Shown: positions 2,376-36,236 of the stretch, in pieces | Position numbering within the stretch: the stretch's first letter is position 1 | Layout: each line of letters starts with the position of its first letter | Source: a virus | Lineage: Duplodnaviria > Caudoviricetes | IMG/VR virus record: IMGVR_UViG_3300020403_000031 | Coordinates: 1-38,267 of that record | Reading direction: 5' to 3' (one strand) | Length of the DNA stretch: 38,267 bases | Program-made: the position numbers and the translations under genes | The notes under the pieces: model-generated | Database searches by the model: none | Seen by the model: the letters and a program-made list of their open reading frames with translations, nothing else | Told to the model about the DNA's origin: nothing

Positions 2376-3044
2376 ATGGCTATCCAAACTATTAATGTGG
2401 GCTCATTAGCAAATGATGGAACTGGTGACGACCTTCGAGAAGCATTTATAAAAGTAAATCAAAACTTTCAAGAACTTGATCTAAGAGCAGCAGACATAGA
2501 TGCTGAAAATGTTGGTATTGGTGGATTTACAGTTTTTAAAGAAAAAAGTGGTAATACTTTTAGATTTAGAGCACTACAATCTGATCCATTGGCACCAGGT
2601 ACTATTGACTTTAGAGTAAGCGATGATGGAAATACACTATTCTTAAGAAGCACACAGGCCACTTTAGTTTTTACAGATGGCACACAAACATTAACTAGTA
2701 ATGTAAGTGAACCAGTTATTTTCCAAGGTGCACCTGGCACTGGTGCAAGCGTATCAGTAAACAATAGCACTAAAACTGTGCAAGTTAGTAGTTTACTGGT
2801 AAACGAAAATTCACCTTCTGTAAGTGCAACATTGAATATGAGATTGAATAATATTATCAATGTTGGAACTATTAACGGAGTAAACATATCTGATATTGCC
2901 AATGTAGCCTCTTTAGATTTCGGCGGCATCACAAATGTGATAACTAGTATACTGGATTATTTGGTGTTTACCACAGATGTTGATTTTGGAACAATAACTT
3001 CACCAGCCAATGTAGTATTGGACGAAGGTTTAATAGTTAGTTAA
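2376..3044 (+). CDS. Baseplate/tail fibre connector protein with T4 gp9/gp10-like N-terminus
   Basis: N-terminal MAIQTINVGSLANDGTGDDLREAFIKVNQNFQEL matches the gp9/gp10 N-terminal motif. Confidence 0.75.
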   Translation: MAIQTINVGSLANDGTGDDLREAFIKVNQNFQELDLRAADIDAENVGIGGFTVFKEKSGNTFRFRALQSDPLAPGTIDFRVSDDGNTLFLRSTQATLVFTDGTQTLTSNVSEPVIFQGAPGTGASVSVNNSTKTVQVSSLLVNENSPSVSATLNMRLNNIINVGTINGVNISDIANVASLDFGGITNVITSILDYLVFTTDVDFGTITSPANVVLDEGLIVS

Positions 3045-3054
3045 GGATTTTTAA

Positions 3055-6000
3055 ATGTTCAATGTAGTGAATGGCTCTATAATTCTAACAGTTGACAGTG
3101 ATGATCAAAGACCAATAGTTTTGCCATTGCCGATTACTACAGAAAATAGTACAAATAACATTATAGACTTTATCAGTGACAATGTAGGCCCTGATACTAC
3201 AGTTTATGTCGATATGGATAATACTATTGCAGATTTTAATAAGGCACTAGCAGGTTTATTTGCTTATACTAATGCAAGAGATATAGTAGCAACAACAGAA
3301 GAAAAAGTTGCTACAATTTCAGCGGCAATGCCTGGCTTCTTTTTAAATTTAGAAAAATTGCCTCAAGCAGAATATCTTCTATCTAAGCTAGGTAATTATA
3401 AAATTTTAACAACTGATACAGGGTTATTAAACGGTAACGGAGAAAAAGTAGATTGGGTAACTAATAATTTAATTACATATCCTCCAACTGGTGATGTCCT
3501 GTTTGCACTTAACTTTAACAAAGGTTCTTATGCAAATTCTACTAGCGTGTTAATCGATGATAGTCCTACATATGTGAAACAATTCAAAGATGCAGGCGGA
3601 GAAGCATTTAGGTATATATGGTCAGAGATAGTTGCAGGATCATTACCTCCTGGATTTAGCTTAGTTAATAATGAAATTGTAGGAACTCCAATAAGTCAAA
3701 ATACTACAACAACAAGCACATTTACTGTCAGAGTACACGATAATGAAGGTTACTTTGAAAGAGAATTAGCTATAACAGTTAACGCTGATCCTAATTACAA
3801 TGCTTGGCAAGTTCAATCGCCTTATGATCTAGGTAGATTTATTGAACGTACACAAACTAATATACTTTTACCAATTGACCAAACAGATTCGCCAACAGTT
3901 GCAGTGATCGCTGGAGAACTACCTCCGGGTTATAGACTTGAAGGATATAATATAATAGGATCTGCATTTGAAGTTGCAAGATTAAAAACTTTTGATTTCG
4001 TAATACGTGCAACAGTAAACAACACAATAGCAGATAGAAAATTTAGTATTACCATAGAAGGTGAAGATGCTCCTCAATGGGTAACACCTGCAGGTGATTT
4101 AAATATAGGATCTACATTCTCAGAAAGTTTTTGGATTGATGAAGTAAATAGCGAATATGGTATATACTCAACAATTAATTATATCACATATACTGTCACA
4201 GTTGCACCAGGCACAAATAGTTATGGAACAGGAAACAAATATTATATAGATGGTGTTCTCAGTCCAGCATTAACATTAAGAGAAGGAAGCACATATAGGT
4301 TTGATCTTTCAGATGCATCAGTTGAAACACACGGTTTGAGATTTTCTGTAACTCCAAATGGAATATGGGGTGCAGAACAAGTTGGAGAAGAATACACAGA
4401 AGGAGTCAAGGTTGTTGGAACAGCAGGTAACGTAGGCGCATATGTAGAAATATCTGTACCAAGAAATGCACCTAATTTACATTACTATTGTATAAATCAT
4501 AGTGGTATGGGCAATAGTGCAATAACAAGTAAACCAACAAGTTACACAAAACAAAATGTAACTACATCAAACGGAGTGCCTAGTAATAGCACAGGAAACG
4601 ATGGCGATTATATTTTTGATACTATCAATAACATATTTTATGTCAAATACAATGGAATATACAAGTTAGTAAATCAGTCTCAGTTAAGAAGTTTGTATGG
4701 TAACACAACAAGATTAGAAGTTAGCACAACAATACCTAATCCGCTTGAAGTAGATTTTTGGTTCAACATAAATCCAGATAATCAAGGATTAAAGTTTAAG
4801 ATTGCAAACTTTAATAGTAGCAAACTTTTGTGGCAGCCAAATAATTATAAACTATCTAAAACTGCACCTATTGATCCAGAAGATAAAGATTTGTGGATAC
4901 AATACTTTGACAATGACACAAAAATTATTCTTAGATATTATGATAAAGACGAATTGCAATGGATTCCTTTACCTTATACATCAAGCAACGTTCCTCCAGA
5001 ACGTGCATCTAATGCGTTTTTTGTAATAGATAATAGTAAAGTTGAGTTTCAATTAGAGGCCATAGATCCAGATTTAACAGCCGGCGACACTTTAAAATAT
5101 TATATTCAAGACGGCGATGGAGAATTACCGCCAGGATTGACACTTTCATCAAGTGGAAAAATTGCAGGAATAGTGGATCCTATACTTGCTCTTGATTCAG
5201 ATAATTACGATCCATATGGAGATAGTACAAGACAACAACAAGGTGTGACTGATACAGAAGGTTATGATAGTTTTAGTTTTGATACACAATTCTATGGTTT
5301 TGGATTACCAAGCAGGAATCCAAGAAAATTAAATAGAGAATATGAATTTTTTATTACTGTAGCAGATGATGTTAGCGAAAGTAAAAGACGCTTTAGTATA
5401 TATGTTGTAAGTGATGATTTTTTAAGAGCCGATAATACAATTATGAGATCTGCAACTGGATTGTTTACAGCAGATGTTACATACCTAAGAAGGCCTATAT
5501 GGTTGACTCGAGGAGACCTAGGTTCAATTAGGGCCGATAATTACAATACAATTTTTATAGAAGTTTATGATCCTAATTATTTACTAGGAAACATTAATTA
5601 CAATTTATTAAATTATAATGATGATGGTACGCCTAGTGTAGTTCCTGATGGATTAGAATTTGATAGTTCTACAGGTGAATTAGCAGGTATAGTGCCTTAT
5701 CAACCAGCAGTTGAGAAAGAATATAAATTTACAATTGAAGCGACACGTAGTGAAGCGGATCAAGAAATATTTGAAGTAAACACAAATATACTTGAAGATA
5801 CACTTGCAGGAGCTGAAGTATTAAAGGTTAGGAAAATTTCACGTGATATGTCAGACGGTATAGATGATGTAGTCGCGTTAATAGATACAGCAGTTACAAT
5901 AGAAAATAACGATTACTTGATTCTTAATATTAATGAAGATGAAAGCGATGATTATGATGTTTTAGAATTTGCATATCCATTACTTCCAAGTCCAAATTTC

Positions 6001-7992
6001 AAAGCACTTACGTTGTTTAAAGAAATACAAGCAGGTGATTCTTTTGCAATTGCATATAAAAACAATCTTACAGAAACTGATATTGCAAAATGGGTAGGAC
6101 GTAACATAAGATATGCAAGCACAAATAATGTTGTTGATAAAATAGAATTTATTAATAATTATAGGTTTATTGGTGAAAGCAACCAAATGCTTGGAGTTAA
6201 TCATTTGGCTGCAGGAATATCAATCACACCAGGAGAGCCAATACAAACTACAATTAAACGTGCATTATCTCAAGTCACAGGCATTGCACAAGATTTAATA
6301 ATTGTAGACGCTACGGATCTTACAAGTATTGTTGTTAATATACCACAAACAGCATCAAGCAATAATAGAAATTTACTAGAAAGTGTTTTTGATACCGAAG
6401 ATAGTGCACCAGTAGAAAGTGTAGTAGATGATGAAACAATAAAAGTTACATTTACAGGAAACTGGAGTGTTAACGTTCTAAAAGATACACAATTTGCTAT
6501 AGGTGCAGTAAAAGATAAAAATATTAAAAAACGTTTGACTGAATCAAAAACAGAATTTACTTCTACAAGTAAAACATTTACTATAAAAGTTTTAGGAAAT
6601 GTAGAAAGCACTATTCAATGGATAACGCCAGAAGTTTTACCAAACTTAGGTGCTAATAGAATTAGTTATTTAAAAGTTCAAGCACAAACTACACTTGCAG
6701 GTGCAAATTTACGATATGACTTTATATCAGGAAAACTTCCTCAAGGTTTAGAACTTAAACCTAACGGAGAAATTGTAGGAACAACTTCACAATTTGGAAC
6801 AGCATCATCTCCTGGTCTTACTACACTGGATAACAGGGCCACAACATTTGACGGTGCAACAACTACATTTGATAGAGATTTTAAATTTAAAGTTCTTGCA
6901 AGAGATAGATTCGGTTATAGTGCAGTATCAAGAAATTTTACACTTAAAATCGATGATACAGATAACAAATTGTATAGCAACGTGTTTATGCAACCTTTTT
7001 TAATTAATAATCAACGCGAAATTTATGAAAACTTTATAAATGATTATACAATTTTTACTCCTAATTTAATTTATAGACCTTATGATAATAATTTTGGTTT
7101 ACAAAAAAATCTAAGAACTTTAGCATTTGCAGGAATAGAACAAAAAAGTATTGCAGATTTTGCTTCTGCTGTTAGACAAAATCATAAAAAGAAAAAATTT
7201 AAGTTTGGCGAAGTAAAAACAGCAATAGCTAAACAACCTGGTACAAATGATATTGTTTATGAAGTAGTTTACATAGAAATAATAGATCCTGGCAAACCAA
7301 AAAATGGAGATACAGTAAGTAGAGCAAAAATACGCACAGGCACAGAGTTGAAAATAAATCAAGTAAAACTAGAAAGTAAAGATGACGATACGGCAAAATC
7401 ACAAGGTGTTGGATTCTTTAATATTGTTACTAGGTCAGGAACTCCTGTGAAAGTGCAAGAACAAACTACCGGTTTAATTATTCAAACAAGAGCAGGCACA
7501 GATGTGACTATTCCTACAAGTGGAGCTATTACTATTATAACTAGAATTGGGTCATTGACTATACTTACAACAAGTTTAACAACTGATTCATCTGGCGATC
7601 CATTTAGATTTAGGCCAAAAGGTGATGTAATCACAGTAGACCAAACAGCAGTTTTTGCAAGTCAAGGTCTTGATCAATATAGATACATTAGCAATATAGG
7701 AACAATGCGTAAACGTATAAAAGCAATTGGTGCAAACGAAAGAGAATTTTTACCATTATGGATGCGTACTGCACAAGAAGGAAGTTTAGCAGAAATAGAT
7801 TACGTTACAGCATTACCGTTGTGTTATACAACACCTGGAGGATCGCAAATAATCAAAGAAAACATTACAAATGCAAATTTTGATTTTAAACAAATCAACT
7901 ATGAAATTGATAGATATATAGTTGATAAAACATCAGATAGTGATCAAGAAACTTTTATTTTGTTTCCAAATCACACATACAATGAAACATAA
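3055..7992 (+). CDS. Large baseplate-wedge-like virion protein with putative Ig repeats and inserted HAD and cupredoxin-like domains
   Basis: Repeated G(S/E/K)LP(P/Q)G...G.I.G putative Ig motifs; HAD motifs VDMD, ILTT, K, LIDD near the N-terminus; H...YYCINHSGM module; C-terminal LPLWMRTAQ and FDFKQINYEIDRYIVD. Confidence 0.75.
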   Translation: MFNVVNGSIILTVDSDDQRPIVLPLPITTENSTNNIIDFISDNVGPDTTVYVDMDNTIADFNKALAGLFAYTNARDIVATTEEKVATISAAMPGFFLNLEKLPQAEYLLSKLGNYKILTTDTGLLNGNGEKVDWVTNNLITYPPTGDVLFALNFNKGSYANSTSVLIDDSPTYVKQFKDAGGEAFRYIWSEIVAGSLPPGFSLVNNEIVGTPISQNTTTTSTFTVRVHDNEGYFERELAITVNADPNYNAWQVQSPYDLGRFIERTQTNILLPIDQTDSPTVAVIAGELPPGYRLEGYNIIGSAFEVARLKTFDFVIRATVNNTIADRKFSITIEGEDAPQWVTPAGDLNIGSTFSESFWIDEVNSEYGIYSTINYITYTVTVAPGTNSYGTGNKYYIDGVLSPALTLREGSTYRFDLSDASVETHGLRFSVTPNGIWGAEQVGEEYTEGVKVVGTAGNVGAYVEISVPRNAPNLHYYCINHSGMGNSAITSKPTSYTKQNVTTSNGVPSNSTGNDGDYIFDTINNIFYVKYNGIYKLVNQSQLRSLYGNTTRLEVSTTIPNPLEVDFWFNINPDNQGLKFKIANFNSSKLLWQPNNYKLSKTAPIDPEDKDLWIQYFDNDTKIILRYYDKDELQWIPLPYTSSNVPPERASNAFFVIDNSKVEFQLEAIDPDLTAGDTLKYYIQDGDGELPPGLTLSSSGKIAGIVDPILALDSDNYDPYGDSTRQQQGVTDTEGYDSFSFDTQFYGFGLPSRNPRKLNREYEFFITVADDVSESKRRFSIYVVSDDFLRADNTIMRSATGLFTADVTYLRRPIWLTRGDLGSIRADNYNTIFIEVYDPNYLLGNINYNLLNYNDDGTPSVVPDGLEFDSSTGELAGIVPYQPAVEKEYKFTIEATRSEADQEIFEVNTNILEDTLAGAEVLKVRKISRDMSDGIDDVVALIDTAVTIENNDYLILNINEDESDDYDVLEFAYPLLPSPNFKALTLFKEIQAGDSFAIAYKNNLTETDIAKWVGRNIRYASTNNVVDKIEFINNYRFIGESNQMLGVNHLAAGISITPGEPIQTTIKRALSQVTGIAQDLIIVDATDLTSIVVNIPQTASSNNRNLLESVFDTEDSAPVESVVDDETIKVTFTGNWSVNVLKDTQFAIGAVKDKNIKKRLTESKTEFTSTSKTFTIKVLGNVESTIQWITPEVLPNLGANRISYLKVQAQTTLAGANLRYDFISGKLPQGLELKPNGEIVGTTSQFGTASSPGLTTLDNRATTFDGATTTFDRDFKFKVLARDRFGYSAVSRNFTLKIDDTDNKLYSNVFMQPFLINNQREIYENFINDYTIFTPNLIYRPYDNNFGLQKNLRTLAFAGIEQKSIADFASAVRQNHKKKKFKFGEVKTAIAKQPGTNDIVYEVVYIEIIDPGKPKNGDTVSRAKIRTGTELKINQVKLESKDDDTAKSQGVGFFNIVTRSGTPVKVQEQTTGLIIQTRAGTDVTIPTSGAITIITRIGSLTILTTSLTTDSSGDPFRFRPKGDVITVDQTAVFASQGLDQYRYISNIGTMRKRIKAIGANEREFLPLWMRTAQEGSLAEIDYVTALPLCYTTPGGSQIIKENITNANFDFKQINYEIDRYIVDKTSDSDQETFILFPNHTYNET

Positions 7993-10731: not shown

Positions 10732-11418
10732 ATGATAGCAAGAAATGCAACAATCGCAAGTAAAATGTACGATGAAGGCTTGCGTAAATTTATGATTAAT
10801 ATGTATAACCACACTGCGCTAGGATTAGCAGTAAGTGGTTTTATTGCCTACCTTGTGTTTACAACAGGTATGGTATATAGTATGGGTGCCCTAATGTGGG
10901 TGTTTATGTTTGCTCCTCTAGGTATGATTTTATATTATGGCTTTGCGGGACAAAATTGGAGCCTACAGGGTATTACACGCTTTTACTACCTATTCACGGC
11001 AGTTATGGGTGTAAGTATGAGTACTATCTTTGTAGTGTACACGATGATGAGTATAGCTCAAGTGTTTTTTATCACTAGTGCAACATTCGCGGCCGCCAGT
11101 CTCTACGGATACACTACGAAACGTGATCTTACCACTATGGGTAGTTTTCTCATTGTAGGCTTGATTGGCATTATTATTGCTAGTATTGTAAATATTTTCT
11201 TGGCAAGCTCAGCATTTGCATTTGCAATTAGTATTTTAGGAGTGCTTATCTTTGTAGGTATGACTGCGTGGGATACACAAACAGCAAAAAATTTATATAT
11301 ATCTGCACCTAATATGGATGTAGCAGAAAAATATGGTGTTCAAATGGCTTTGAGTCTCTATTTAGATTTTGTGAATTTATTCCAATTTTTATTAGCACTA
11401 TTAGGTAATAGAGAATGA
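10732..11418 (+). CDS. Bax inhibitor-1/YccA family membrane protein
   Basis: About 7 hydrophobic segments; YGYTTKRDL, AWDTQ and ALSLYLDFVNLF motifs. Confidence 0.9.
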   Translation: MIARNATIASKMYDEGLRKFMINMYNHTALGLAVSGFIAYLVFTTGMVYSMGALMWVFMFAPLGMILYYGFAGQNWSLQGITRFYYLFTAVMGVSMSTIFVVYTMMSIAQVFFITSATFAAASLYGYTTKRDLTTMGSFLIVGLIGIIIASIVNIFLASSAFAFAISILGVLIFVGMTAWDTQTAKNLYISAPNMDVAEKYGVQMALSLYLDFVNLFQFLLALLGNRE

Positions 11419-15942: not shown

Positions 15943-16853
15943 AAGAACTATGGGTAGAAAAGTATCGTCCAAATAAAGTGGATGGTTATGTATTTAGAGA
16001 TGATGCACAACGCAAGCAAGTAAATACTTGGATTAAAGATAATACTATTCCACATTTGTTGTTTAGTGGAAATGCAGGTATTGGAAAAACAACACTTGCA
16101 AAATTGTTGTTTAATGAACTTGATGTAAATCCATTAGACATACTAGAGATAAACGCAAGCCGCACAAACTCAGTTGATGATGTGCGAGATAAAATTGTTG
16201 CGTTTGTGCAAATGATTCCATTTGGCGACTTTAAGGTTGTGTTGCTAGATGAGGCAGATTATCTATCTCCAAACGCACAAGCGGCATTGCGTGGTGTAAT
16301 GGAAGAATATCATACAACAGCAAGATTTATACTAACTTGTAACTATCCAAATAGAATTATTCCAGCAATACACAGTAGATGTCAAGGCTTCCACATTGCT
16401 AAGATTGATCAAACAGAGTTTACAGCAAGAGTTGCAGAAATTTTGATTACAGAAGGTGTAAGTCCAGACTTAGATGTACTAGACACATACGTAAAAGCTA
16501 CATATCCAGACTTGCGCAAATGTATCAATATGGTGCAAATGAATTCAGTTGAAGGCAAACTTGTAAGTCCACAAGAAGGCGATAGTGGCGAAGCAGACTG
16601 GAAGCTAGATATGGTAGAACTGTTCAAAGCAGGCAAGATCCACGATGCACGTAAGTTGTTGTGTGGCACTGTGCGAGCAGAAGAAATGGAAGAAATTTAT
16701 CGTTGGTTGTATGACAACATTGAACTGTTCGGAACAGACGAACAGCAAGACCAAGCAGTGCTAATTATAAAGCAAGGTTTAGTAGATCATACATTAGTTG
16801 TTGATCCAGAAATTAATTTGGCAGCAACGCTAATTAGACTAGGAGCATTATGA
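15939..16853 (+). CDS. Sliding-clamp loader ATPase (T4 gp44/RFC small subunit-like)
   Basis: LWVEKYRP, Walker [18 protein letters not shown] and SRC motifs. Confidence 0.92.
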
Positions 16854-17191
16854 CATACATAGTAAATGATAGTTGTATTAGATGTAAACATATGGATTGC
16901 GTTGAAGTTTGTCCCGTAGATTGTTTTTACGAAGGCGAAAATATGCTGGTTATCAATCCAATTGAATGTATTGACTGCGGTGTTTGCGAACCTGAGTGTC
17001 CAGCAGATGCAATTCTTGCAGATACTGCACCAGGTGCTAAAGAATGGGTAGAGTTCAATCAAAAGTGGAGTGATATTTGGCCTAATATCACAGAAATGCG
17101 TCCTGAAGATGTACCAGAAGATGCTGAAAAATGGCAAGGTGTTGAAGGCAAAATGCAATACTTTAGCGAAGAACCAGGAAGGGGAGATTAA
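16850..17191 (+). CDS. fdxA: 7Fe ferredoxin (FdxA type)
   Basis: [43 protein letters not shown]; AGGAG RBS. Confidence 0.92.
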
Positions 17192-27993: not shown

Positions 27994-28566
27994 ATGCACT
28001 ATATAAGTATAAACTTTGCAAACTTTGATCATTTGGCTGTAGCTGAAACTGTTTCCTCTATAGGTACTAGTCTTTTTGAAAATGTAGACGAGTACCAATT
28101 AATAGAAAACAACAATATGTTTACTGTAACATTAGATACTCCGTTTGCATTGACAGAAAATGAAATACAAGGAGTAGCAATGAAATTATTTGAATTAGGT
28201 TTGAATGACTTTGAAATAAATGCGTCGGAAGATTATGACAATATTTCAGAAGTTACACTAGATGATAATCAAGACTTCCACGAATATTTTGGTTATCCTG
28301 GATACGTTGACGAAGACGGAGTTTGGGAAGCAGAATATCAAGGAAGAAAAGTGAAACTTGGCAAACCAATGGCAGGTGATGTAAAGAAGTTCAAAGTTTA
28401 TGTAAAAAATCCAAAGGGTAATGTTGTAAAAGTTAACTTTGGTCAAAAAGGTATGAAAATTAAAAAGAATAATGCCGCTAGACGCAGAAGTTTCCGTGCA
28501 AGACATAACTGCGATAATCCAGGACCGCGTCATAAGGCACGTTACTGGAGTTGCAGAAAATGGTAG
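27994..28566 (+). CDS. Putative head-associated protein: acidic N-region plus basic C-terminal module
   Basis: Sharp switch after WE to the basic AEYQGRKVKLGKP...VKVNFG...SFRARHNC...ARYWSCRKW module. Confidence 0.7.
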   Translation: MHYISINFANFDHLAVAETVSSIGTSLFENVDEYQLIENNNMFTVTLDTPFALTENEIQGVAMKLFELGLNDFEINASEDYDNISEVTLDDNQDFHEYFGYPGYVDEDGVWEAEYQGRKVKLGKPMAGDVKKFKVYVKNPKGNVVKVNFGQKGMKIKKNNAARRRSFRARHNCDNPGPRHKARYWSCRKW

Positions 28567-28709
28567 TTCAAAATCCAAATATTGATCCATATGGATATAC
28601 AGAATATGGATATAGAGGGCTAGAAGAATTAAAAAAAGCAAATGAAAAAATAGAAGAATTAAAAAAAGAGATAGAAGAACTTAAAAAAAGGTTAGAAGAA
28701 AATGGTTAA
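28560..28709 (+). CDS. Small coiled-coil protein, 49 aa (not in ORF track)
   Basis: GGAG RBS; MVVQIQNIDPYGYTEYGYRGLEELKKANEKIEELKKEIEELKKRLEENG. Confidence 0.65.
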   Translation: MVVQNPNIDPYGYTEYGYRGLEELKKANEKIEELKKEIEELKKRLEENG

Positions 28710-29226
28710 AATAAATGAATTTCACGATATGGATATACCAAAAGAAATTTATCCAAAACCTGATTACGATGTAAAAGAAGATTTAAAAATTTATATGCGT
28801 AATGATCCAATGTTTTATCGTAAAGCATTTTTTCCTGCATTTGACCAATATAGAAAAGATAAAAATACAAAAACTTTAGAAAAAATGGTAAACAATGGTC
28901 TTGCAAATTATTGCAAAAAATTTGAATTACCTTTTGCTCCTAAAGAACTACTAACTAGAGAAGATATAGTAACTGTTGTTAATGAACTTATCAATGATGA
29001 ATTTGAAGAAATGAACGAAGGCGTTATGGATTTAGTTAAAGGTTTTGGTAATAGAATTATGCACGGCAAAAAAGATCCTTTTAAAGATTATATAAGATAT
29101 GCACAAAAACGCCTAAATTACAAAACAGACAAACAGTTGCTTTCTGATATGAGAAGAGAATTTCCAAAAGCGGCACCAGCAGATTTAGCGAGGGCGATTG
29201 TACAAGCAAGAAAAGCGTCTGCCTAA
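28702..29226 (+). CDS. Putative internal head protein
   Basis: MVKINEF leader; internal MNE/G boundary before a basic module. Confidence 0.65.
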   Translation: MVKINEFHDMDIPKEIYPKPDYDVKEDLKIYMRNDPMFYRKAFFPAFDQYRKDKNTKTLEKMVNNGLANYCKKFELPFAPKELLTREDIVTVVNELINDEFEEMNEGVMDLVKGFGNRIMHGKKDPFKDYIRYAQKRLNYKTDKQLLSDMRREFPKAAPADLARAIVQARKASA

Positions 29227-29435
29227 TGGATATTGCGGAGTTACAACACTTAGCAGGTATACGCAACAAGTTCACAGGGTGGACACCTTACACTGCTGAA
29301 AATATCAGTATAACTGGAACAGAAAAAGCTCGTATACAACGTAAGAAAAAAATACAACCAGGCACTGAAGAATGGTTTAAACTATGGTTTTCACAGCCTA
29401 AGTTGACTGGAGAAAAGCCCTATGAAGATAAGTGA
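29226..29435 (+). CDS. Putative internal head protein
   Basis: MDIAELQHLAGI start; IQPGTEEWFKLWFS motif; TAATG-coupled. Confidence 0.65.
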   Translation: MDIAELQHLAGIRNKFTGWTPYTAENISITGTEKARIQRKKKIQPGTEEWFKLWFSQPKLTGEKPYEDK

Positions 29436-30447
29436 TCTATCAGAAGGTGCCGGACGTATAGTTAAAGGTGTCAATACTACTGTAGATGTTGGCGTTAACG
29501 AAATACCACGTCAAGCTAAAAAATTTGGTAATACAGTTGATAAAGACGGACGTCCTCCTACATTAAGTAAAAAAGTCAAAGGTAAAAGTACAAATGTTTT
29601 ATTTAATTTAGGAATGGTTAAAGAAAACAAACAAACATATACAGCACAAGAATTGGCAATAATGGAAGGTGGTCATACACTAGATGAAAAGCCATTGACA
29701 AATAAACCAATAGGCAGTATAATGCAAGAAATGATGACAGTTGAATTCAAAGAAGCTATAGGCGAATTGTCACCAAGTACAGACATTTATGTCGATATGG
29801 ATGGTGTACTAGCAGATTTTTTTGGAGAATGGGCAAAAATAATGCAAGTAAACCATTTTTCTCAAATTAATAAAAAACACGATATAGATGATGCATTACA
29901 AAAAATTAGAGATACTGATGAATTTTGGCTAAACCTTCCATTGTTACCGCAGGCAACAACACTTTTATATTTGATAAAGAAAGTAAAAGGAAGTTACAAC
30001 ATTTGTAGTAGTCCTTTAGCAGACGACCCAAGATCAGAACCTCATAAACGTGAATGGATAAAAAGAAACTTAGATTTCTTCCCTCCAAAAAATGTGTACA
30101 TAACACATAACAAACAAAATTATGCAAAAAATTTAGATGGAACTCCAAACATTTTAATAGACGATTATGGTGTAAATATCAATGCTTGGGAGGAAGCAGG
30201 CGGTATTGGATTTAAATATAAGGATCATAAATTCGAAAGAACTGCAAAAGCTATAAAAAATGCTATGCAAGAAAACTTTGCTGATGGCAAAGTAAAAGGC
30301 AAAAGCAGACCAGGGCGTGTAAAACGTTCAGGTGCTAGTTGTAATGGATCAGTAACTGATTTACGTAAAAGAGCTAAAAATAGTAGTGGTGAAAAGGCTA
30401 AAATGTACCACTGGTGCGCTAATATGAAAAGCGGTCGTAAAAAGTGA
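29422..30447 (+). CDS. Modular protein with HAD 5'(3')-nucleotidase domain and basic flanking modules
   Basis: MKISDLSE leader; YVDMDGVLADF, CSSP, KREW, LIDD HAD motifs; basic NFADGK...HWCANMKSGRKK tail. Confidence 0.8.
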   Translation: MKISDLSEGAGRIVKGVNTTVDVGVNEIPRQAKKFGNTVDKDGRPPTLSKKVKGKSTNVLFNLGMVKENKQTYTAQELAIMEGGHTLDEKPLTNKPIGSIMQEMMTVEFKEAIGELSPSTDIYVDMDGVLADFFGEWAKIMQVNHFSQINKKHDIDDALQKIRDTDEFWLNLPLLPQATTLLYLIKKVKGSYNICSSPLADDPRSEPHKREWIKRNLDFFPPKNVYITHNKQNYAKNLDGTPNILIDDYGVNINAWEEAGGIGFKYKDHKFERTAKAIKNAMQENFADGKVKGKSRPGRVKRSGASCNGSVTDLRKRAKNSSGEKAKMYHWCANMKSGRKK

Positions 30448-30656
30448 CAAAGCAAAAAGGAATTGATTGGGCTGAAGAATATCCAGATGGGTATAGCAAA
30501 AAATGGAGAGAATACGAAGTTAAGGAATGGAAAAAATTAGATCCAGATGGATATGCACATTATATAGATAAATACAAAGAACACGAAGCTAATAAAACAA
30601 GTACAGATGATAGAAACAAGTATTGGCAAGAATGGGCAAAAAGGAATAAAATATGA
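30444..30656 (+). CDS. Small Trp/Tyr/Lys-rich hypothetical protein
   Basis: GTG start overlapping the upstream TGA; PDGY occurs twice. Confidence 0.55.
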   Translation: MTKQKGIDWAEEYPDGYSKKWREYEVKEWKKLDPDGYAHYIDKYKEHEANKTSTDDRNKYWQEWAKRNKI

Positions 30657-31228
30657 AACTAAATGAATTTTTAAATGAAGCAGATTATGAACTATCTCCA
30701 CAACAGCGTATGCTCGCTAATATAGGTCGTGTACTTGGAGTACAGGCAGAGCAAGTTAAAGATGATGCACTTGCAAACACAATGGCTAAGATTGGAAATG
30801 AACTTACTAATGTTGGAAGATCTTTTGCTCCAACAAGTTTAAAAGATGTAGCAGACAGAACAGACTTACCAGTTGATGTTGTTAAAAAAATAGTTATGTA
30901 TGGTAAAAAAGTTGCCGATGCTACAGCTCAAATTAAGAAAGACCACAAAGACGGCGGACTTAATGATCACATAGAAGAAAAGTCTAAGGGTCTATATTAC
31001 TATGTAAACAAAAACAAAAAATCCGGCAAAAAGCCTCGTAAGAAAGGGGCAAAAGGAGCACCAACTGATCAAGATTGGAAAGATGCTGCAAAGACTGCAA
31101 AAGAAAATGTAGAAGAAACAACTAGTGCCGGTGGTGTAGCCGCAGTAGCTATGCCCTTAGGTGATATGCAAAGTCGCACAGGTCCTAAGAGAAATAAGAA
31201 GCCAACCAAACGCTCTAAAGATAAATAG
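30653..31228 (+). CDS. Putative internal head polyprotein
   Basis: MKLNEFLNE leader; modules beginning after IEE and VEE; AAGGA RBS. Confidence 0.7.
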   Translation: MKLNEFLNEADYELSPQQRMLANIGRVLGVQAEQVKDDALANTMAKIGNELTNVGRSFAPTSLKDVADRTDLPVDVVKKIVMYGKKVADATAQIKKDHKDGGLNDHIEEKSKGLYYYVNKNKKSGKKPRKKGAKGAPTDQDWKDAAKTAKENVEETTSAGGVAAVAMPLGDMQSRTGPKRNKKPTKRSKDK

Positions 31229-31243
31229 TATAGTATACTATTT
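31221..31243 (+). promoter_or_regulatory. Late promoter (ATAAATA) overlapped by a 10-bp perfect inverted repeat
   Basis: ATAAATA at 31221-31227; AAATAGTATA-G-TATACTATTT at 31223-31243; GGAG follows. Confidence 0.6.
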
Positions 31244-31254
31244 GGAGCATTATA

Positions 31255-31887
31255 ATGGGAAAATATTGGAAAAAAGATGGCGTAGAAATGTGCCCTAAAG
31301 AGTGCTGTGGTTCTCCAATCACCGAATGTACCTGTGATACAAGTTGCAAAGAATGTAACTGTTATGAACGCAAAGAATCAATCAATGAAGGTTTAGCAGA
31401 CTTGGCTGATATGGCGGAGCGTGATCACGAAGTACAAATGGCACGTAGTGATTTGTATAAAATAGCAAAATATGCAATCAAACTTCACGAAATGATGAAA
31501 AATGTAAGCGAAGCTGATGGTATCGAAGGATGGCAACAAGCAAAAATTACCAAAGCTGCTGATTATATGAGTAGTGTATTTCATAGTTTAGACTATGAAA
31601 TGAATATGGAGACTGCTCCTAAATTACCTGAATCAGTAAAACCAAAAAAACACTTGCGTATGTTAAGTGATAGCGAATTAAATTCATATAAAGGAACATT
31701 GGCTATGAAAATGAAGGAAATTACAGAATCAATTGGTTTATGTCCAGACTGTGGTAACCCAAGTTACAAAACATTACCTGAAGAAAAGCAAAAAGGCGTT
31801 GACGGCAAAGTATGCTGGAAAGGTTACAAGCGTATGGGCACTAAGAAAAAAGACGGCAAGACTGTAGATAACTGTGTAAAGATGTAA
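31255..31887 (+). CDS. Putative internal head polyprotein with Cys-rich N-terminus
   Basis: CPKECCGSPITECTCDTSCKECNC; helical DHEVQMARSDL module; CPDCG; C-terminal CWKGYKRMGTKKKDGKTVDNCVKM. Confidence 0.7.
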   Translation: MGKYWKKDGVEMCPKECCGSPITECTCDTSCKECNCYERKESINEGLADLADMAERDHEVQMARSDLYKIAKYAIKLHEMMKNVSEADGIEGWQQAKITKAADYMSSVFHSLDYEMNMETAPKLPESVKPKKHLRMLSDSELNSYKGTLAMKMKEITESIGLCPDCGNPSYKTLPEEKQKGVDGKVCWKGYKRMGTKKKDGKTVDNCVKM

Positions 31888-32012
31888 TGAAAATAAAAGA
31901 AGTCATATTGGAAAAATGGAGCGCAAAATACAAGAAAAGTATTAACTGCTCTAATCCAAAAGGCTTCTCACAAAAGGCACATTGCGCTGGCAAAAAGAAA
32001 AGGAAAAAGTAA
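31887..32012 (+). CDS. Small basic protein with capsid-targeting-like leader, 41 aa (not in ORF track)
   Basis: MKIKEVILE/KWSAKYKKSINCSNPKGFSQKAHCAGKKKRKK; TAATG coupling at both ends. Confidence 0.75.
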   Translation: MKIKEVILEKWSAKYKKSINCSNPKGFSQKAHCAGKKKRKK

Positions 32013-32629
32013 TGGACTACAATGCACTACAACACAAACTGTTTGCAATGGATCCTACCGATCCAAAAGAAGATTTAGCAAAATTAAGATCACAAATAGG
32101 TGGAGATGCTCCAGTATCCGCTCCGGCTATTGATTATATTGCTGAAAGTGCAGTTGTACCAGAAGGTTCTTTACAAATGGATCAGAATCTAAGTGTAAAT
32201 GATTTTGCTACTCTTGCAGGTGTTGTTACTGAAAAGCATAAAACAGGTTCAGCAGGACAGGCAAAAGGCCGAGATCCTATGCCTAGCACAAGCAAACCTA
32301 GTAAAACAGGTGAACAACCTCATCCATTAAAAGGCAAACTTGTTGGCGAAGGCGAGGAAGATCGTATTTCAGCACTAGAACGCAGAATTGAAGCATTAGA
32401 AGCAATGTTAAGCGAACGTGAACTTACTAAACCAGAAGAGAAAGAAAAAGAACGTTTAGTAAAAGGTATGAAGAAAAACACAAGTGATTTTAAAAAGCGT
32501 TATGGAAAAGACGCAAAGGCAGTAATGTATGCAACTGCAACAAAAAATGCAAAGGCAAATGCAAGTATTGATACTAGTGATATAAAAAGTAAATTATATG
32601 ATGCATTAAGTAGAAAGTTAGGTGTATAA
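32012..32629 (+). CDS. Putative internal head polyprotein
   Basis: ATG at 32012 (TAATG, AAGGA RBS) rather than the TTG at 31982; modules after IAE, VTE, VGE, LSE. Confidence 0.7.
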   Translation: MDYNALQHKLFAMDPTDPKEDLAKLRSQIGGDAPVSAPAIDYIAESAVVPEGSLQMDQNLSVNDFATLAGVVTEKHKTGSAGQAKGRDPMPSTSKPSKTGEQPHPLKGKLVGEGEEDRISALERRIEALEAMLSERELTKPEEKEKERLVKGMKKNTSDFKKRYGKDAKAVMYATATKNAKANASIDTSDIKSKLYDALSRKLGV

Positions 32630-33525
32630 TGAAGTTTCAAGAAATAGATATAAATGAAGACGAAACAATTGCAAGAACTCTAAAAAGAGGAATGAAGGGC
32701 GCAGATGTTAGACGTATTCAAAGAGAACTTGGAATGCCAAAACGTGAACAAGATGGGATTTTTGGTAAAAAAACAGAAAAAGCAGTAAGAACTTTTCAAA
32801 AAAATATGGGTATACAAGTTGATGGAATGGTTGGACAACAAACTCAAAGTGCAATTCTAAAAACTAGAATGCCCGGTACAAAAATAAATGTACTCAAGCC
32901 AGGTCCTGCTTATATTGACGCACCATATCCAGATACTCCAAAAAGCTCACCCAAGAAAGATATTAAGCCAAAAATCAGTGACCTTAGACGTAGACAAATG
33001 GACAAACAAAAAAATGCTGGTCCTAAAGACAGTCCAAAAGGATCAGATAGTCCAAGATTTTATAAACCAGTAGATCCTAAAGACAGCACAAAAGGATCAG
33101 ATAGTCCAAGATATTATGCACCACCAAAATCAGGTTATATGGATGCTCCAAAAGGAAAAAGTGTGCCTAAAAAAGGCCCGGGCGATACACCAGAACCAAA
33201 AGGCGATCCACTAAAAGGAAAAGATTTACCTAGTGGACCAGGAGGAGATCAAGCTCTACCACAATATAGACCAAAAGGTGATGCATTAGGAATGAAAAAA
33301 GATCCGCAGAATATGGTACGTCCTTCAGTGGTAGCACCATTAAGCAAAAGATCATACAAGATTGTTACTGGATCAGGACAAGGTAAAAGATATAAATTAT
33401 ACGATAAGAACGGAAATTTAATTAAAAGTGGAAGAGGAGCAGGACCTAGAAATGTTCCTCAGAAAAAACTAGTCAGTGTTAAAGACTCGTTGTATAATTC
33501 TATAACTAAAGAACTAGGTGTCTAA
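32629..33525 (+). CDS. Peptidoglycan-binding domain protein with Pro/Lys/Gly-rich tail and capsid-targeting-like leader
   Basis: MKFQEIDINE; LKRGMKGADVRRIQ...DGIFGKKTEKAVRTFQ...VDGMVGQQT. Confidence 0.8.
   Translation: MKFQEIDINEDETIARTLKRGMKGADVRRIQRELGMPKREQDGIFGKKTEKAVRTFQKNMGIQVDGMVGQQTQSAILKTRMPGTKINVLKPGPAYIDAPYPDTPKSSPKKDIKPKISDLRRRQMDKQKNAGPKDSPKGSDSPRFYKPVDPKDSTKGSDSPRYYAPPKSGYMDAPKGKSVPKKGPGDTPEPKGDPLKGKDLPSGPGGDQALPQYRPKGDALGMKKDPQNMVRPSVVAPLSKRSYKIVTGSGQGKRYKLYDKNGNLIKSGRGAGPRNVPQKKLVSVKDSLYNSITKELGV
33022..33117 (+). repeat. Two near-identical 42-bp direct repeats, period 54 bp, in frame
   Basis: CCTAAAGACAGTCCAAAAGGATCAGATAGTCCAAGATTTTAT at 33022 and CCTAAAGACAGCACAAAAGGATCAGATAGTCCAAGATATTAT at 33076. 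Confidence 0.85.
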
Positions 33526-36236
33526 TGAAATTACTAGATGTCCTCAAGGAAAATGCCTTGCAGGCATTCGCTACTAACAAAAATATAAATGTTTTTGTTG
33601 GCCCTGATACAAATGACACAGACTTAGTAAAAGCAATCCAAAAAGAACTATCTAAGCATAGTATTGCCAAAGGAGAAAGACCTGAAGGACAATGGTGGCC
33701 TAACGATACAAAAGGTTGGACAGGGCCTATTAACGGTGTTTGGGATAATAGAATGACTCAAGCAGTTGTTGAATGGGAACGTAGTATCAATATACAACTT
33801 GCAGATATGAAAGGCTCCCAACGTCCGTTAAATGCAAACGGTATGATAAGTCAACAAGATGCAAAATATTTATTAGCACCTGTGAATAACTTAGGATGGT
33901 TAAAAAATAGAGAACTTGAAAGTGCTATTTCAAAATTAAAAAATATTATTAAAAAATTTCCTCCTAGAAACGGTCAACAAATTGCTAATTTTGATATCTA
34001 TAAAATTAACACATTTTCAGATATGATTAAAAGCATAGGCTATGACGGATGGATGGCTATATTAGTACCAATTGCTAGAGTTAGATTTGGTGATGGTCAA
34101 ATACCTCGAGATACACTAGTAAACTGGGCAAATGATAGTGTAGCAAAAATATTAAACAATTCAAGAAACAACGACTTATTAAATGATAATTGGAGAGCTA
34201 TTATGCTTCCATCAAATAATGGAAGAATAAAAGCAGGTAATCTTTTTGGTGGTGAAACATTCATAATACCAGATTTTGAAAGACTAAGAAAAATTAAAGA
34301 AACATATCTTGGGCCAGGATTAGAAAAAACAGAATTATTTGATAGGCCAAAACTGCTTTTTTTACATTATGCAAGTATTGCACAGTTTTACATAGAGTCA
34401 AACAAAGTTGCACTAAACAAACAAGCAAAAGAAACAGAAGAAGAGAATGCAAAGTCTAAGCAAAATGATGTTGCAAATATAGACCAGCTTACTGCTAGAC
34501 AATTAGCAGAACAAATCAATAATGCAATGGAAAACAATTACTGGGCAATATTTACTTCTAAACGTGTAGAGAGTGACGAAATGTCCATTGAAGAGGCTAT
34601 GACCGAACTACACAATGCAAAAGATTATGATGCTGTTGCAGTTGAATTCAAGGATCTTACAGGCGAAGATTTATCTATCAAAATGCGAGCAGAACTAGAT
34701 GATGATTTATACAAAAGTATATTTGTTGGGCATTTAGTACGTATTAGGCGAATAAATCCACGTTTGTATCACAACGCTATACAATTTGGCGGTGCAGATA
34801 GCGTTACAGTAAATTATGCAGATCAAGAATTCAAAATTTTGGCGGCATTTAATGATAACAATGGAAGACCAAATATAGAACCAGAAGTCAAAGATGTGAT
34901 TTTAGAAGATGCTTTGCTTAAAGAAGCAATCAACAACACAGGCGGCCAACTTCCTGATCTTTATAGACAACCATCTGCAGCAGAAACTACACAAGCTGTA
35001 GATACATTCATCAATGTTATGAATGAAACATATCCAGAAATGACTGCATTTTATGCACATCTTCCTCCATTCACAGACTATCCTCCTTTTGGTAAGTTAC
35101 GTTTAAAAGGCATTATAGAAGAAGTAACAGTGTATACTGCCGCTGGTTCTGATCCTACGCAGTTTATTATTAATTCTATAGAAAAAGATAGAATTTGGTT
35201 AGTTGGTGATGGCAGTGATAATGACGGTGACGGAGAGCCAGATCCTGGTAATGCAAACATTTATTTTGATTCTAAATATGCAAGTGAAGGATTAAATGGA
35301 AGAGATTTTGAAATTGGTGAAGAAGAAGAAAAAATTGACTTAACTGACCAGGAATTAGATATTATTAGAGACCTTGCTAGTGGTAAAGAAGATATTGTTC
35401 TTGGTGCGATAGATCGTTTATTTGCATTGAATAATCCTGCAAAACAATATATAGATAGAATATATCCAGGATACAAACAAGAGACTGGACAGTTTATTGA
35501 ATTTGACCTAGGCGGTAGAGGTGACGATGCTTGGACACACAAATTTTTCTCAAAAGAGGAAACAAGTTCAAACAAGTATATGGAAAAACTTCTAACAGAA
35601 ATGGCAAATTCCAAAAACACTGCACCACTACAAGTTATTGCATTTATTGCACCTAAAGGTGTAGCAGATGAATTTAAACTTGCATTGAATAGACCAAGAT
35701 TCGGTGGAATATTTAATGATGTTGACGAGGAGCATTTGAAGCGCCTTGTAAAAGCAGTAATGAATCGAGAAGATTTTAATTTAGTAGACAAATATTATGA
35801 TGGTGATTTACAGCAAGAAATAGAAGACAAAGATTGGTGGGGAGAAAATCCAGAAACTACAGAATTACTTAACAAAATTGGTATAAATCCAAAAGAATTA
35901 AAAGCAGAGGAAAACTTTACATTACTTAAATCTGAAACTGAAGAAGTTATAGGACAACTCAATGCACTTCCAACTAAAGCAGAGGATAGGACGCAAGCAC
36001 TTGAAGAAATAGATTTTCTATCTGTGATTGAAAGAATAGAAAAATACGTTGATGAAATACAAGATAATTCAAGTAAAGACGGATATGGTGAACAGGATAT
36101 GCTTAAGGATTTACTAGACGAAATTGCCCCTTATTTTGTTCAGAGCAATTTTAGTATGAAATACCGAGATATACCTAATTGGCAAGAAGCATCAGAAAGA
36201 TTGAAAAAAATATATGAAAGATTAGGTGGCGATTAA
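33525..36236 (+). CDS. Large putative internal virion protein with PG-binding-like N-domain and annexin-like repeats
   Basis: MKLLDVLKE leader; VKAIQKEL...GPINGVWD...AVVEWE...LNANGMI; two annexin-like helical repeats; DNDGDG motif. Confidence 0.65.
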   Translation: MKLLDVLKENALQAFATNKNINVFVGPDTNDTDLVKAIQKELSKHSIAKGERPEGQWWPNDTKGWTGPINGVWDNRMTQAVVEWERSINIQLADMKGSQRPLNANGMISQQDAKYLLAPVNNLGWLKNRELESAISKLKNIIKKFPPRNGQQIANFDIYKINTFSDMIKSIGYDGWMAILVPIARVRFGDGQIPRDTLVNWANDSVAKILNNSRNNDLLNDNWRAIMLPSNNGRIKAGNLFGGETFIIPDFERLRKIKETYLGPGLEKTELFDRPKLLFLHYASIAQFYIESNKVALNKQAKETEEENAKSKQNDVANIDQLTARQLAEQINNAMENNYWAIFTSKRVESDEMSIEEAMTELHNAKDYDAVAVEFKDLTGEDLSIKMRAELDDDLYKSIFVGHLVRIRRINPRLYHNAIQFGGADSVTVNYADQEFKILAAFNDNNGRPNIEPEVKDVILEDALLKEAINNTGGQLPDLYRQPSAAETTQAVDTFINVMNETYPEMTAFYAHLPPFTDYPPFGKLRLKGIIEEVTVYTAAGSDPTQFIINSIEKDRIWLVGDGSDNDGDGEPDPGNANIYFDSKYASEGLNGRDFEIGEEEEKIDLTDQELDIIRDLASGKEDIVLGAIDRLFALNNPAKQYIDRIYPGYKQETGQFIEFDLGGRGDDAWTHKFFSKEETSSNKYMEKLLTEMANSKNTAPLQVIAFIAPKGVADEFKLALNRPRFGGIFNDVDEEHLKRLVKAVMNREDFNLVDKYYDGDLQQEIEDKDWWGENPETTELLNKIGINPKELKAEENFTLLKSETEEVIGQLNALPTKAEDRTQALEEIDFLSVIERIEKYVDEIQDNSSKDGYGEQDMLKDLLDEIAPYFVQSNFSMKYRDIPNWQEASERLKKIYERLGGD

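What the first reader, a model, noticed from the sequence alone, without database searches (positions are those of the whole stretch)
3196..3615. HAD nucleotidase domain with intact motifs inserted inside an Ig-like repeat of a baseplate-type protein
Seen: roughly residues 48-187 of the 1645-aa structural protein carry all four HAD motifs (VYVDMDNTIAD, ILTT, GEKVDW, LIDD). They sit between the two halves of a putative Ig repeat (IVLPLPI ... IVAGSLPPG), whereas the next repeat is uninterrupted (ILLPID...VIAGELPPG). Known: this motif pattern is that of 5'(3')-deoxyribonucleotidases (NT5C-like). Inference: the virion tail may display a phosphatase acting on extracellular or periplasmic nucleotides or on phosphorylated surface receptors. 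I do not know of a described case.
Basis: partly seen in the sequence, partly recalled or inferred. Interest (0 to 1): 0.78.

Follow-up and report, generated by a model that had tools for sequence, protein, structure and literature searches.

The report
Phosphatase grafted onto marine phage particles
A predicted phosphate-removing enzyme domain with intact catalytic residues is spliced into structural proteins of three unrelated groups of marine phages and was not seen as a free gene in our searches, so these phages likely carry it on the outside of the particle, where it would most likely trim phosphate groups from the host's surface coat.

Summary
Confirmed, and wider than reported. Residues ~28-188 of the 1645-aa Ig-repeat protein are predicted to fold as an NT5C-like HAD domain inside the first Ig repeat (AlphaFold pLDDT 92; nearest solved folds are 5'(3')-deoxyribonucleotidases). 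It is no chimera: seven other clusters (60-75% identical) have it, and an independent contig spans both junctions. The split-Ig+HAD cassette was gained once and lost once in this phage lineage. The same HAD clade (bootstrap 100) also sits on the gp25 baseplate protein of pelagimyophage-like T4-type phages. In HTVC023P-type pelagiphage relatives it is inserted into an endosialidase-like beta-barrel of a protein encoded next to the tail adaptor. The catalytic Asp, Asp, Thr/Ser, Lys, Lys, Asp-Asp are unsubstituted in 133 distinct domains. No stand-alone member was found, and amino-acid make-up has shifted to that of tail proteins. Cap residues differ between carriers, so 'nucleotidase' is not supported. 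Best reading: a mobile, virion-displayed phosphomonoesterase acting on host-surface phosphate groups (0.45). Activity, substrate and position on the virion are untested. Six literature searches found no description.

The parts
3055..7992 (+). Carrier: 1645-aa He_PIG (putative Ig) repeat protein in the tail/baseplate gene cluster of a marine jumbo phage
   Evidence: Pfam He_PIG E 9.7e-12; distant homolog Atu_ph07 gp329 (26% over 260 aa, E 9e-13) is in that phage's virion proteome, 3 unique peptides, 2.08% coverage (PMC6102473 supplement)
3055..3135 (+). N-terminal half of Ig repeat 1 (aa 1-27)
   Evidence: Model strands 8-14 and 21-24; repeat-profile positions 2-28 matched in relatives
3136..3618 (+). 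Inserted NT5C-like HAD domain with leading helix (aa ~28-188); catalytic D53 (3211), D55 (3217), T119 (3409), K131 (3445), K156 (3520), D168-D169 (3556-3561)
   Evidence: phrog_2643; fold matches 3bwv Z 13.1 rmsd 2.8 over 133 aa and 6g2n Z 11.8 rmsd 3.2 over 137 aa; no substitution at these positions in 133 distinct domains
3619..3789 (+). C-terminal half of Ig repeat 1 (aa 189-245)
   Evidence: Aligns to repeat 2, 0 of 2000 shuffles as high; repeat profile E 8.9e-15
3802..4080 (+). Ig repeat 2, uninterrupted; HAD-less orthologues begin here
   Evidence: L015, L016, P0012, P0013 and L320 start at the equivalent position, and in L015, L016 and L320 the gp9/gp10-like gene lies directly upstream; fold matches to SraP and MfFcnA4 Ig domains, Z 10.0
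4186..4533 (+). Second optional module (about aa 378-493) shared with marine phage tail-fibre and structural proteins
   Evidence: Absent from P0002 and P0004; phrog_30742 tail fibre E 1.6e-17; 44 phage records match here
2376..3044 (+). Upstream gp9/gp10-like gene (context)
   Evidence: phrog_677 E 5.8e-09; T4_gp9_10_N E 6.6e-05
29785..30222 (+). A second NT5C-like HAD in ORF 29422-30447, of a different clade; not the donor of the insert
   Evidence: AU test rejects joining it with the wedge domains, p 6e-08

Best explanation
The insert is a predicted magnesium-dependent phosphomonoesterase that is likely displayed on the outside of the phage particle, where it would bind and remove phosphate monoesters from the host's surface coat (LPS, capsule or other glycans). 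Shown: the domain is a real, conserved insertion; its clade occurs only inside structural proteins of three phage groups in all sets examined; catalytic residues are unsubstituted; the module is optional. Predicted: HAD fold; insertion in a loop between the second and third strands of the Ig repeat; in the pelagiphage-type protein, insertion in the last hairpin of a beta-barrel like that of endosialidase. Inferred: exterior location; catalysis through a phospho-aspartate (D53, with D55 as acid/base and Mg held by D53, D55 and D168); a surface-glycan substrate; a role in capture-and-release during adsorption, or in freeing particles from debris and non-hosts.
For: Catalysis: over 133 distinct domains D53 129 (4 gaps), D55 132 (1 gap), T/S119 133, K131 133, K156 133, D168 133, D169 133, although identity between carriers is only 29-52%. 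Display: all 10 representatives with E <= 1.4e-23 among 1.84 billion belong to the three carriers, five as fragments. 79 of 79 metagenome loci are wedge (9) or HTVC023P-type (70). 53 of 61 relatives of P0050 share the Ig-HAD(-gp25) form; in L003 it lies between a PAAR-like gene and gp6. Make-up: charged residues 13-18% in the three carriers (41 domains) against 26-28% in 124 other NT5C-like domains; the window's tail genes have 13-16% and five cytoplasmic enzymes 24-30%. Host domains are adhesion-type: Ig repeats, and a barrel matching phi92 endosialidase 255-340 (Z 10.2, rmsd 2.2, 85 aligned, model range 69-345); the endosialidase barrel is a polysialic-acid binding site (PMC12632334, passages). 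The N-terminus of the carrier family holds a subtilase in Atu_ph07 gp329, a virion protein. Cap positions 73-75 are fixed or nearly fixed within a carrier but differ between carriers (N-A-R; N-L/F-L; D-W-Y), as expected if the ligands differ.
Against: No activity, substrate, proteomics or structure exists for any HAD-bearing phage; no cultured phage carries the fusion. Hosts are inferred and their surface phosphomonoesters are unknown. gp25 sits at the sheath side of the baseplate (recalled from T4), away from the membrane-contact face, so only long surface polymers would be in reach. The nearest solved folds are nucleotidases. Low-charge composition shows kinship with structural proteins, not where catalysis happens.
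Confidence: 0.45

Rival explanations
1. Virion-borne ecto-nucleotidase: it hydrolyses dissolved or leaked nucleotides near the host, to feed it phosphate or nucleosides or to erase an extracellular signal.
For: Closest folds and profiles are 5'(3')-deoxyribonucleotidases; the aromatic at position 61 is kept; the periplasmic HAD AphA ranks third in the fold search (Z 11.5); the HTVC023P-type cap keeps W-Y at 74-75.
Against: The wedge cap has Ala at 74, where head-polyprotein and most stand-alone NT5C-like domains have an aromatic. A rough estimate with assumed values (6 copies, kcat/Km 1e5-1e6 per M per s, 1-10 nM substrate) gives 2-200 phosphates per hour, against about 7e5 in one ~350-kb genome (size from 11% completeness), so feeding is negligible; a signalling role is not excluded.
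Confidence: 0.2
2. Sensor: the domain binds or slowly turns over phosphate or a phospho-metabolite, and its cap movement gates fibre release or tail triggering according to host or water chemistry.
For: It is placed inside structural domains at the baseplate and beside the tail adaptor rather than at fibre tips; it is optional.
Against: Three unrelated insertion sites are unlikely to share an allosteric path; the acid/base Asp is unsubstituted, which binding alone would not need.
Confidence: 0.12
3. Intracellular late function: the domain works in the infected cytoplasm (nucleotide pools, RNA-end healing, counter-defence), and fusion to a structural protein only provides late expression.
For: The next-ranked relatives occur in multidomain proteins with tRNA nucleotidyltransferase (Pfam PolyA_pol), HD_4, Zeta_toxin/AAA_33 kinase, Sod_Cu and SLT domains; jumbo phages use HAD phosphatases in RNA repair (PMC7824862, passages); a sister relation to that group is not rejected (p 0.50).
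Against: No stand-alone member was found; composition departs from all intracellular relatives; low-copy structural proteins are poor expression vehicles; this phage has a separate HAD of that group.
Confidence: 0.13
4. Inert decoration or passenger.
For: Lost in P0012/P0013; present in only 7 of the 80 best-ranked HTVC023P-type carriers.
Against: No catalytic substitution in 133 domains; pN 0.20-0.23 against pS 0.58-0.68 in five wedge orthologues, as constrained as the Ig parts.
Confidence: 0.05

Closest known systems
5'(3')-deoxyribonucleotidases (NT5C: cdN, mdN; S. epidermidis 3bwv; phrog_2643)
   Same: Predicted HAD core with helical cap; DxD, Thr/Ser, Lys, DD motifs.
   Different: Soluble intracellular enzymes; here the domain is inserted in virion proteins, has a shorter and variable cap, an extra N-terminal helix, and no proline after motif II.
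Baseplate glycerophosphodiesterase of Lactobacillus phage Ld17
   Same: A phosphate-ester hydrolase carried in a baseplate that acts on surface carbohydrate polymers (PMC7476776, one passage; the original paper was seen only as a reference).
   Different: Unrelated family, a diesterase, Gram-positive host; not a mobile insert shared by three phage groups.
Atu_ph07 gp329 (subtilase + He_PIG)
   Same: Homologous carrier with an enzyme at the N-terminus, found in virions.
   Different: Protease fused at the end; no HAD; soil Agrobacterium phage.
NT5C-like domains in multidomain, probably head-packaged phage proteins (such as window 29422-30447); compare polyvalent proteins (PMC5512222, passages)
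   Same: Nearest relatives by score; probably also virion-associated (inferred).
   Different: Separate clade, charged composition, likely injected and active inside the cell.
Periplasmic or surface HAD acid phosphatases (AphA class B; class C)
   Same: HAD phosphatases working outside the cytoplasm (recalled); fold Z 11.5 and 9.1.
   Different: Bacterial exported proteins, 12-13% identity; not the source.

Membership tests
HAD superfamily phosphatase | Rossmann-like HAD core | tested here: met
   AF2 pLDDT 92; top fold matches are HADs, Z 13.1 rmsd 2.8 over 133 aa
HAD superfamily phosphatase | Motif I DxDx[T/V], motif II hydrophobic x3 + S/T, Lys and Asp-Asp (definitions from PMC3946280) | tested here: met
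   DMDNT 53-57, KILT/T119, K131 and K156, D168-D169; unsubstituted in 133 domains
HAD superfamily phosphatase | Mg-dependent phosphatase activity | not testable with these tools
   Needs an assay
NT5C 5'(3')-deoxyribonucleotidase | Profile match over the curated cut-off | tested here: inconclusive
   Pfam NT5C 21.1-23.4 bits against cut-off 24.8; phrog_2643 E 1.4e-13
NT5C 5'(3')-deoxyribonucleotidase | Cap substrate-specificity motif S with base-stacking aromatics | tested here: inconclusive
   Aromatic kept at 61, but Ala at 74 in wedge forms, Leu/Phe in gp25 forms and Trp in podovirus forms. Equivalence to cdN residues is by sequence alignment and recall, not by superposition.
NT5C 5'(3')-deoxyribonucleotidase | Soluble stand-alone enzyme | tested here: not met
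   All clade members seen are inserts in structural proteins
NT5C 5'(3')-deoxyribonucleotidase | Activity on (deoxy)nucleoside monophosphates | not testable with these tools
   Needs an assay
He_PIG Ig-like repeat (split) | Both halves match the repeat | tested here: met
   C half E 8.9e-15; N half significant in 4 of 5 relatives though not in this protein; strand pattern in the model
T4-type baseplate wedge protein | Family or structure match to gp6, gp7, gp8 or gp10 | tested here: inconclusive
   No such match for the carrier; neighbour is gp9/gp10-like
Virion-displayed enzyme | Present and exposed on the particle | not testable with these tools
   Indirect only: homolog in the Atu_ph07 virion, gp25 fusion, composition

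The most novel reading that the evidence does not exclude
A previously undescribed class of virion-surface enzyme: a dedicated clade of HAD phosphomonoesterases that moves between jumbo, T4-like and HTVC023P-type marine phages by loop insertion into adhesion domains, and that edits or reads phosphate groups on the coat of SAR11-like oligotrophs. Surface phosphorylation would then be a host-range or host-state determinant in some of the ocean's most abundant phage-host systems.
Probability: 0.4. Interest if true: 0.85.

Novelty: new variant of a known kind. Interest (0 to 1): 0.72.

Why it matters
Known tail enzymes mostly cut glycans, peptidoglycan, esters or phosphodiesters; a phosphomonoesterase on the particle was not found in the literature searched. 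Its recruitment into three unrelated virion proteins with no catalytic loss points to real selection. The domain is about 160 residues and single-chain, so a substrate screen is easy. It could reveal surface chemistry of SAR11 and related hosts, whose phage receptors are poorly known (recalled). It also warns that phage 'nucleotidase' annotations counted as auxiliary metabolic genes can be structural modules.

Tried and rejected
Chimera: rejected. Seven other clusters align end to end; L001, L158 and L159 carry aa 1-342 with 2-5 substitutions; contig 4 of run X18 spans 2900-3796. Of 8 runs laid, 4 gave no laid contig (the filter can drop contigs), X4 and X12 bridged only the 5' junction, and the one RNA run covered only 3862-4063, which shows nothing about expression. 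Donor in the same genome: rejected (p 6e-08; wedge plus all head-type domains p 0.022). My first AU test (p 0.418) left the stand-alone rows free and only shows that the branching order of the three carriers is unresolved. The mixture-model careful tree did not finish (one search is the quick tree, 83 of 165 rows); one search used LG+G4 on 45 rows. Shared composition could inflate support for the clade, though Y173, Q176 and A151 are also shared. Host: the alignment found nothing in genome contigs; the ferredoxin's best matches, from 2 of 64 parts scanned, are mostly Alphaproteobacteria at 62-73%, a weak hint; no tRNAs. Carrier identity: no solved relative; Atlas returned only He_PIG or unnamed clusters. 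Cultured phages: none of 50,697 records has the fusion. Literature: searches found no description (listings seen); PMC9599517 main text has 0 occurrences of 'phosphatase', 'nucleotidase' or 'haloacid' (supplements not searched and may list the gene). Earlier findings of this scan: four look-ups, nothing. No complex prediction was run.

Full report
Setting. The window is a virus record estimated 11% complete, so about 350 kb. It encodes a stand-alone DNA polymerase III alpha fragment, a clamp loader, DnaJ, ClpA, PhoH and tail genes. The split polymerase III module marks the group 2.2 jumbo phages of Iyer et al. (PMC7824862, passages). Runs that hold the stretch are labelled marine, seawater, wetland or mixed culture.

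Observation. All motifs are where stated. Residues 48-185 match phrog_2643 at E 1.4e-13. The AF2 model of aa 1-342 from 28 sequences has pLDDT 92.1. Its best solved matches are 3bwv (Z 13.1, rmsd 2.8, 133 aligned), human cdN 6g2n (Z 11.8) and AphA (Z 11.5), and repeat 2 matches Ig domains at Z 10.0. The strands on either side of the HAD reproduce the strand series of repeat 2, so the insert (about aa 28-188) lies between the second and third strands. By sequence the C half is clear (E 8.9e-15); the N half is not significant in this protein but is in 4 of 5 relatives.

Not an artefact. Of 46 proteins found with aa 40-340, 8 including the query cover the region fully at 60-100% identity, and D53, D55, T119, K131, K156, D168 and D169 are invariant in them. 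One contig of an independent run spans both junctions. pN is about a third of pS in the HAD and similar to the Ig parts (five orthologues, uncorrected).

The mobile unit. L015 and L016 keep the same gene order and are 78% identical over the rest, but start at residue ~249, directly after the upstream gene. On a tree of the C-terminal part (18 rows) the HAD-less L320 is sister to a clade of 10 (100/99), and the HAD-less P0012 and P0013 are nested among HAD-bearing forms (100/99). The simplest reading is one gain of the whole split-Ig+HAD cassette and one loss, so it is dispensable for building a particle.

Two more carriers. (a) L003 and L004 carry the same cassette (48-52% identical) fused to gp25, upstream of gp6 in a T4-like baseplate operon. 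Their gp6 is closest to pelagiphage Mosig, Methylophilales phage Melnitz and HTVC008M (51-55%). 53 of 61 relatives of P0050 have this form: 47 passed a strict motif pattern, 4 differ only by Phe before the DxD, and 2 are cut at the N-terminus. (b) 55 of the 70 loci, and 70 of 79 metagenome loci, encode a 331-362-aa protein just after the tail adaptor of HTVC023P-type phages. Most relatives of this protein lack the HAD, many being 163-169 aa long, and the HAD replaces a short loop near the C-terminus; 7 of the 80 best-ranked carriers have it, out of about 8,800 stretches estimated, and the ranking favours HAD-bearing forms. Its model (pLDDT 78.7) shows a barrel that closes around the insert and matches phi92 endosialidase 255-340 (Z 10.2, rmsd 2.2). 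This is a second, independent intradomain insertion.

One clade, never alone in these sets. A profile search of 1.84 billion representatives gave 10 hits at E <= 1.4e-23, all from the three carriers (five as fragments), before a tier of multidomain and stand-alone NT5C-like proteins. The three groups form one branch (SH-aLRT 99; 100/99); their internal order is unresolved. The window's second HAD is not the donor. Over 133 distinct domains no catalytic position is substituted. Charged residues fall to 13-18% against 26-28% in 124 other domains, matching the tail genes of the window. The cap is poorly conserved across the clade but has carrier-specific fixed residues; in nucleotidases the cap sets specificity (PMC3946280, passages).

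Mechanism. Chemistry follows from HAD knowledge: attack by D53, a phospho-aspartate, hydrolysis aided by D55, with Mg, which seawater supplies. Location follows from the carriers: gp25 is a baseplate part, and the jumbo carrier's homolog Atu_ph07 gp329, with an N-terminal subtilase, is in the virion proteome (PMC6102473, section 29 and supplement). The substrate is the weakest step. I favour phosphate monoesters on surface polymers (0.45) because both host domains are adhesion-type, the cap varies by phage group, feeding the host is quantitatively negligible, and a baseplate phosphodiesterase acting on surface carbohydrate is known from Ld17 (PMC7476776, one passage). A HAD that removes phosphate from polysaccharide-bound ribose is also known (7shg, Z 8.8; its function is recalled). 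Rivals: ecto-nucleotidase 0.20, intracellular role 0.13, sensor 0.12, passenger 0.05; the remainder is unforeseen.

Comparison and verdict. It works like a HAD phosphatase and descends from NT5C-like phage enzymes, but it should not be filed as a 5'(3')-deoxyribonucleotidase: it is not a soluble stand-alone enzyme and its specificity motif is doubtful. Searches found no description; the library lacks most subscription papers. PMC5259590 (passages) mentions only a stand-alone deoxyribonucleotidase, and PMC9599517 (main-text term search) does not mention one. Verdict: real, recurrent and apparently undescribed; a new variant of virion-displayed enzyme, with function untested. Interest 0.72.

Noticed in passing
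window 4186-4533: Optional module with H...C-x2-H-x2-M, which from recall resembles a cupredoxin copper site; shared with S-TIM5, pelagiphage and cyanophage tail proteins and with several HAD-bearing HTVC023P-type loci. Possible metal-binding domain on marine virions.
   Followed up: partly
window 27994-33525, notably 29422-30447: Cluster of lysine-rich proteins resembling head-packaged cargo; relatives of the 29422 HAD are fused to tRNA nucleotidyltransferase, HD, kinase, Cu/Zn SOD, SLT or LysM domains.
   Followed up: partly
P0032; L317 9241-12996; P0037, P0041, P0044: The same Ig-repeat carrier family bears a subtilase (P0032, Atu_ph07 gp329; a Sinorhizobium phage Phosso match annotated S8 peptidase) or CBM5/12 modules: a modular display platform.
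   Followed up: partly
L237-L316: The HTVC023P-type post-adaptor protein takes other inserts in or near the same barrel (forms of about 190-290 aa).
   Followed up: no
window 10732-11418 and 16850-17191: Bax inhibitor-1 family membrane protein and an FdxA-type ferredoxin with mostly alphaproteobacterial best matches.
   Followed up: partly
window 33525-36236: 903-aa protein without Pfam or PHROG match.
   Followed up: no
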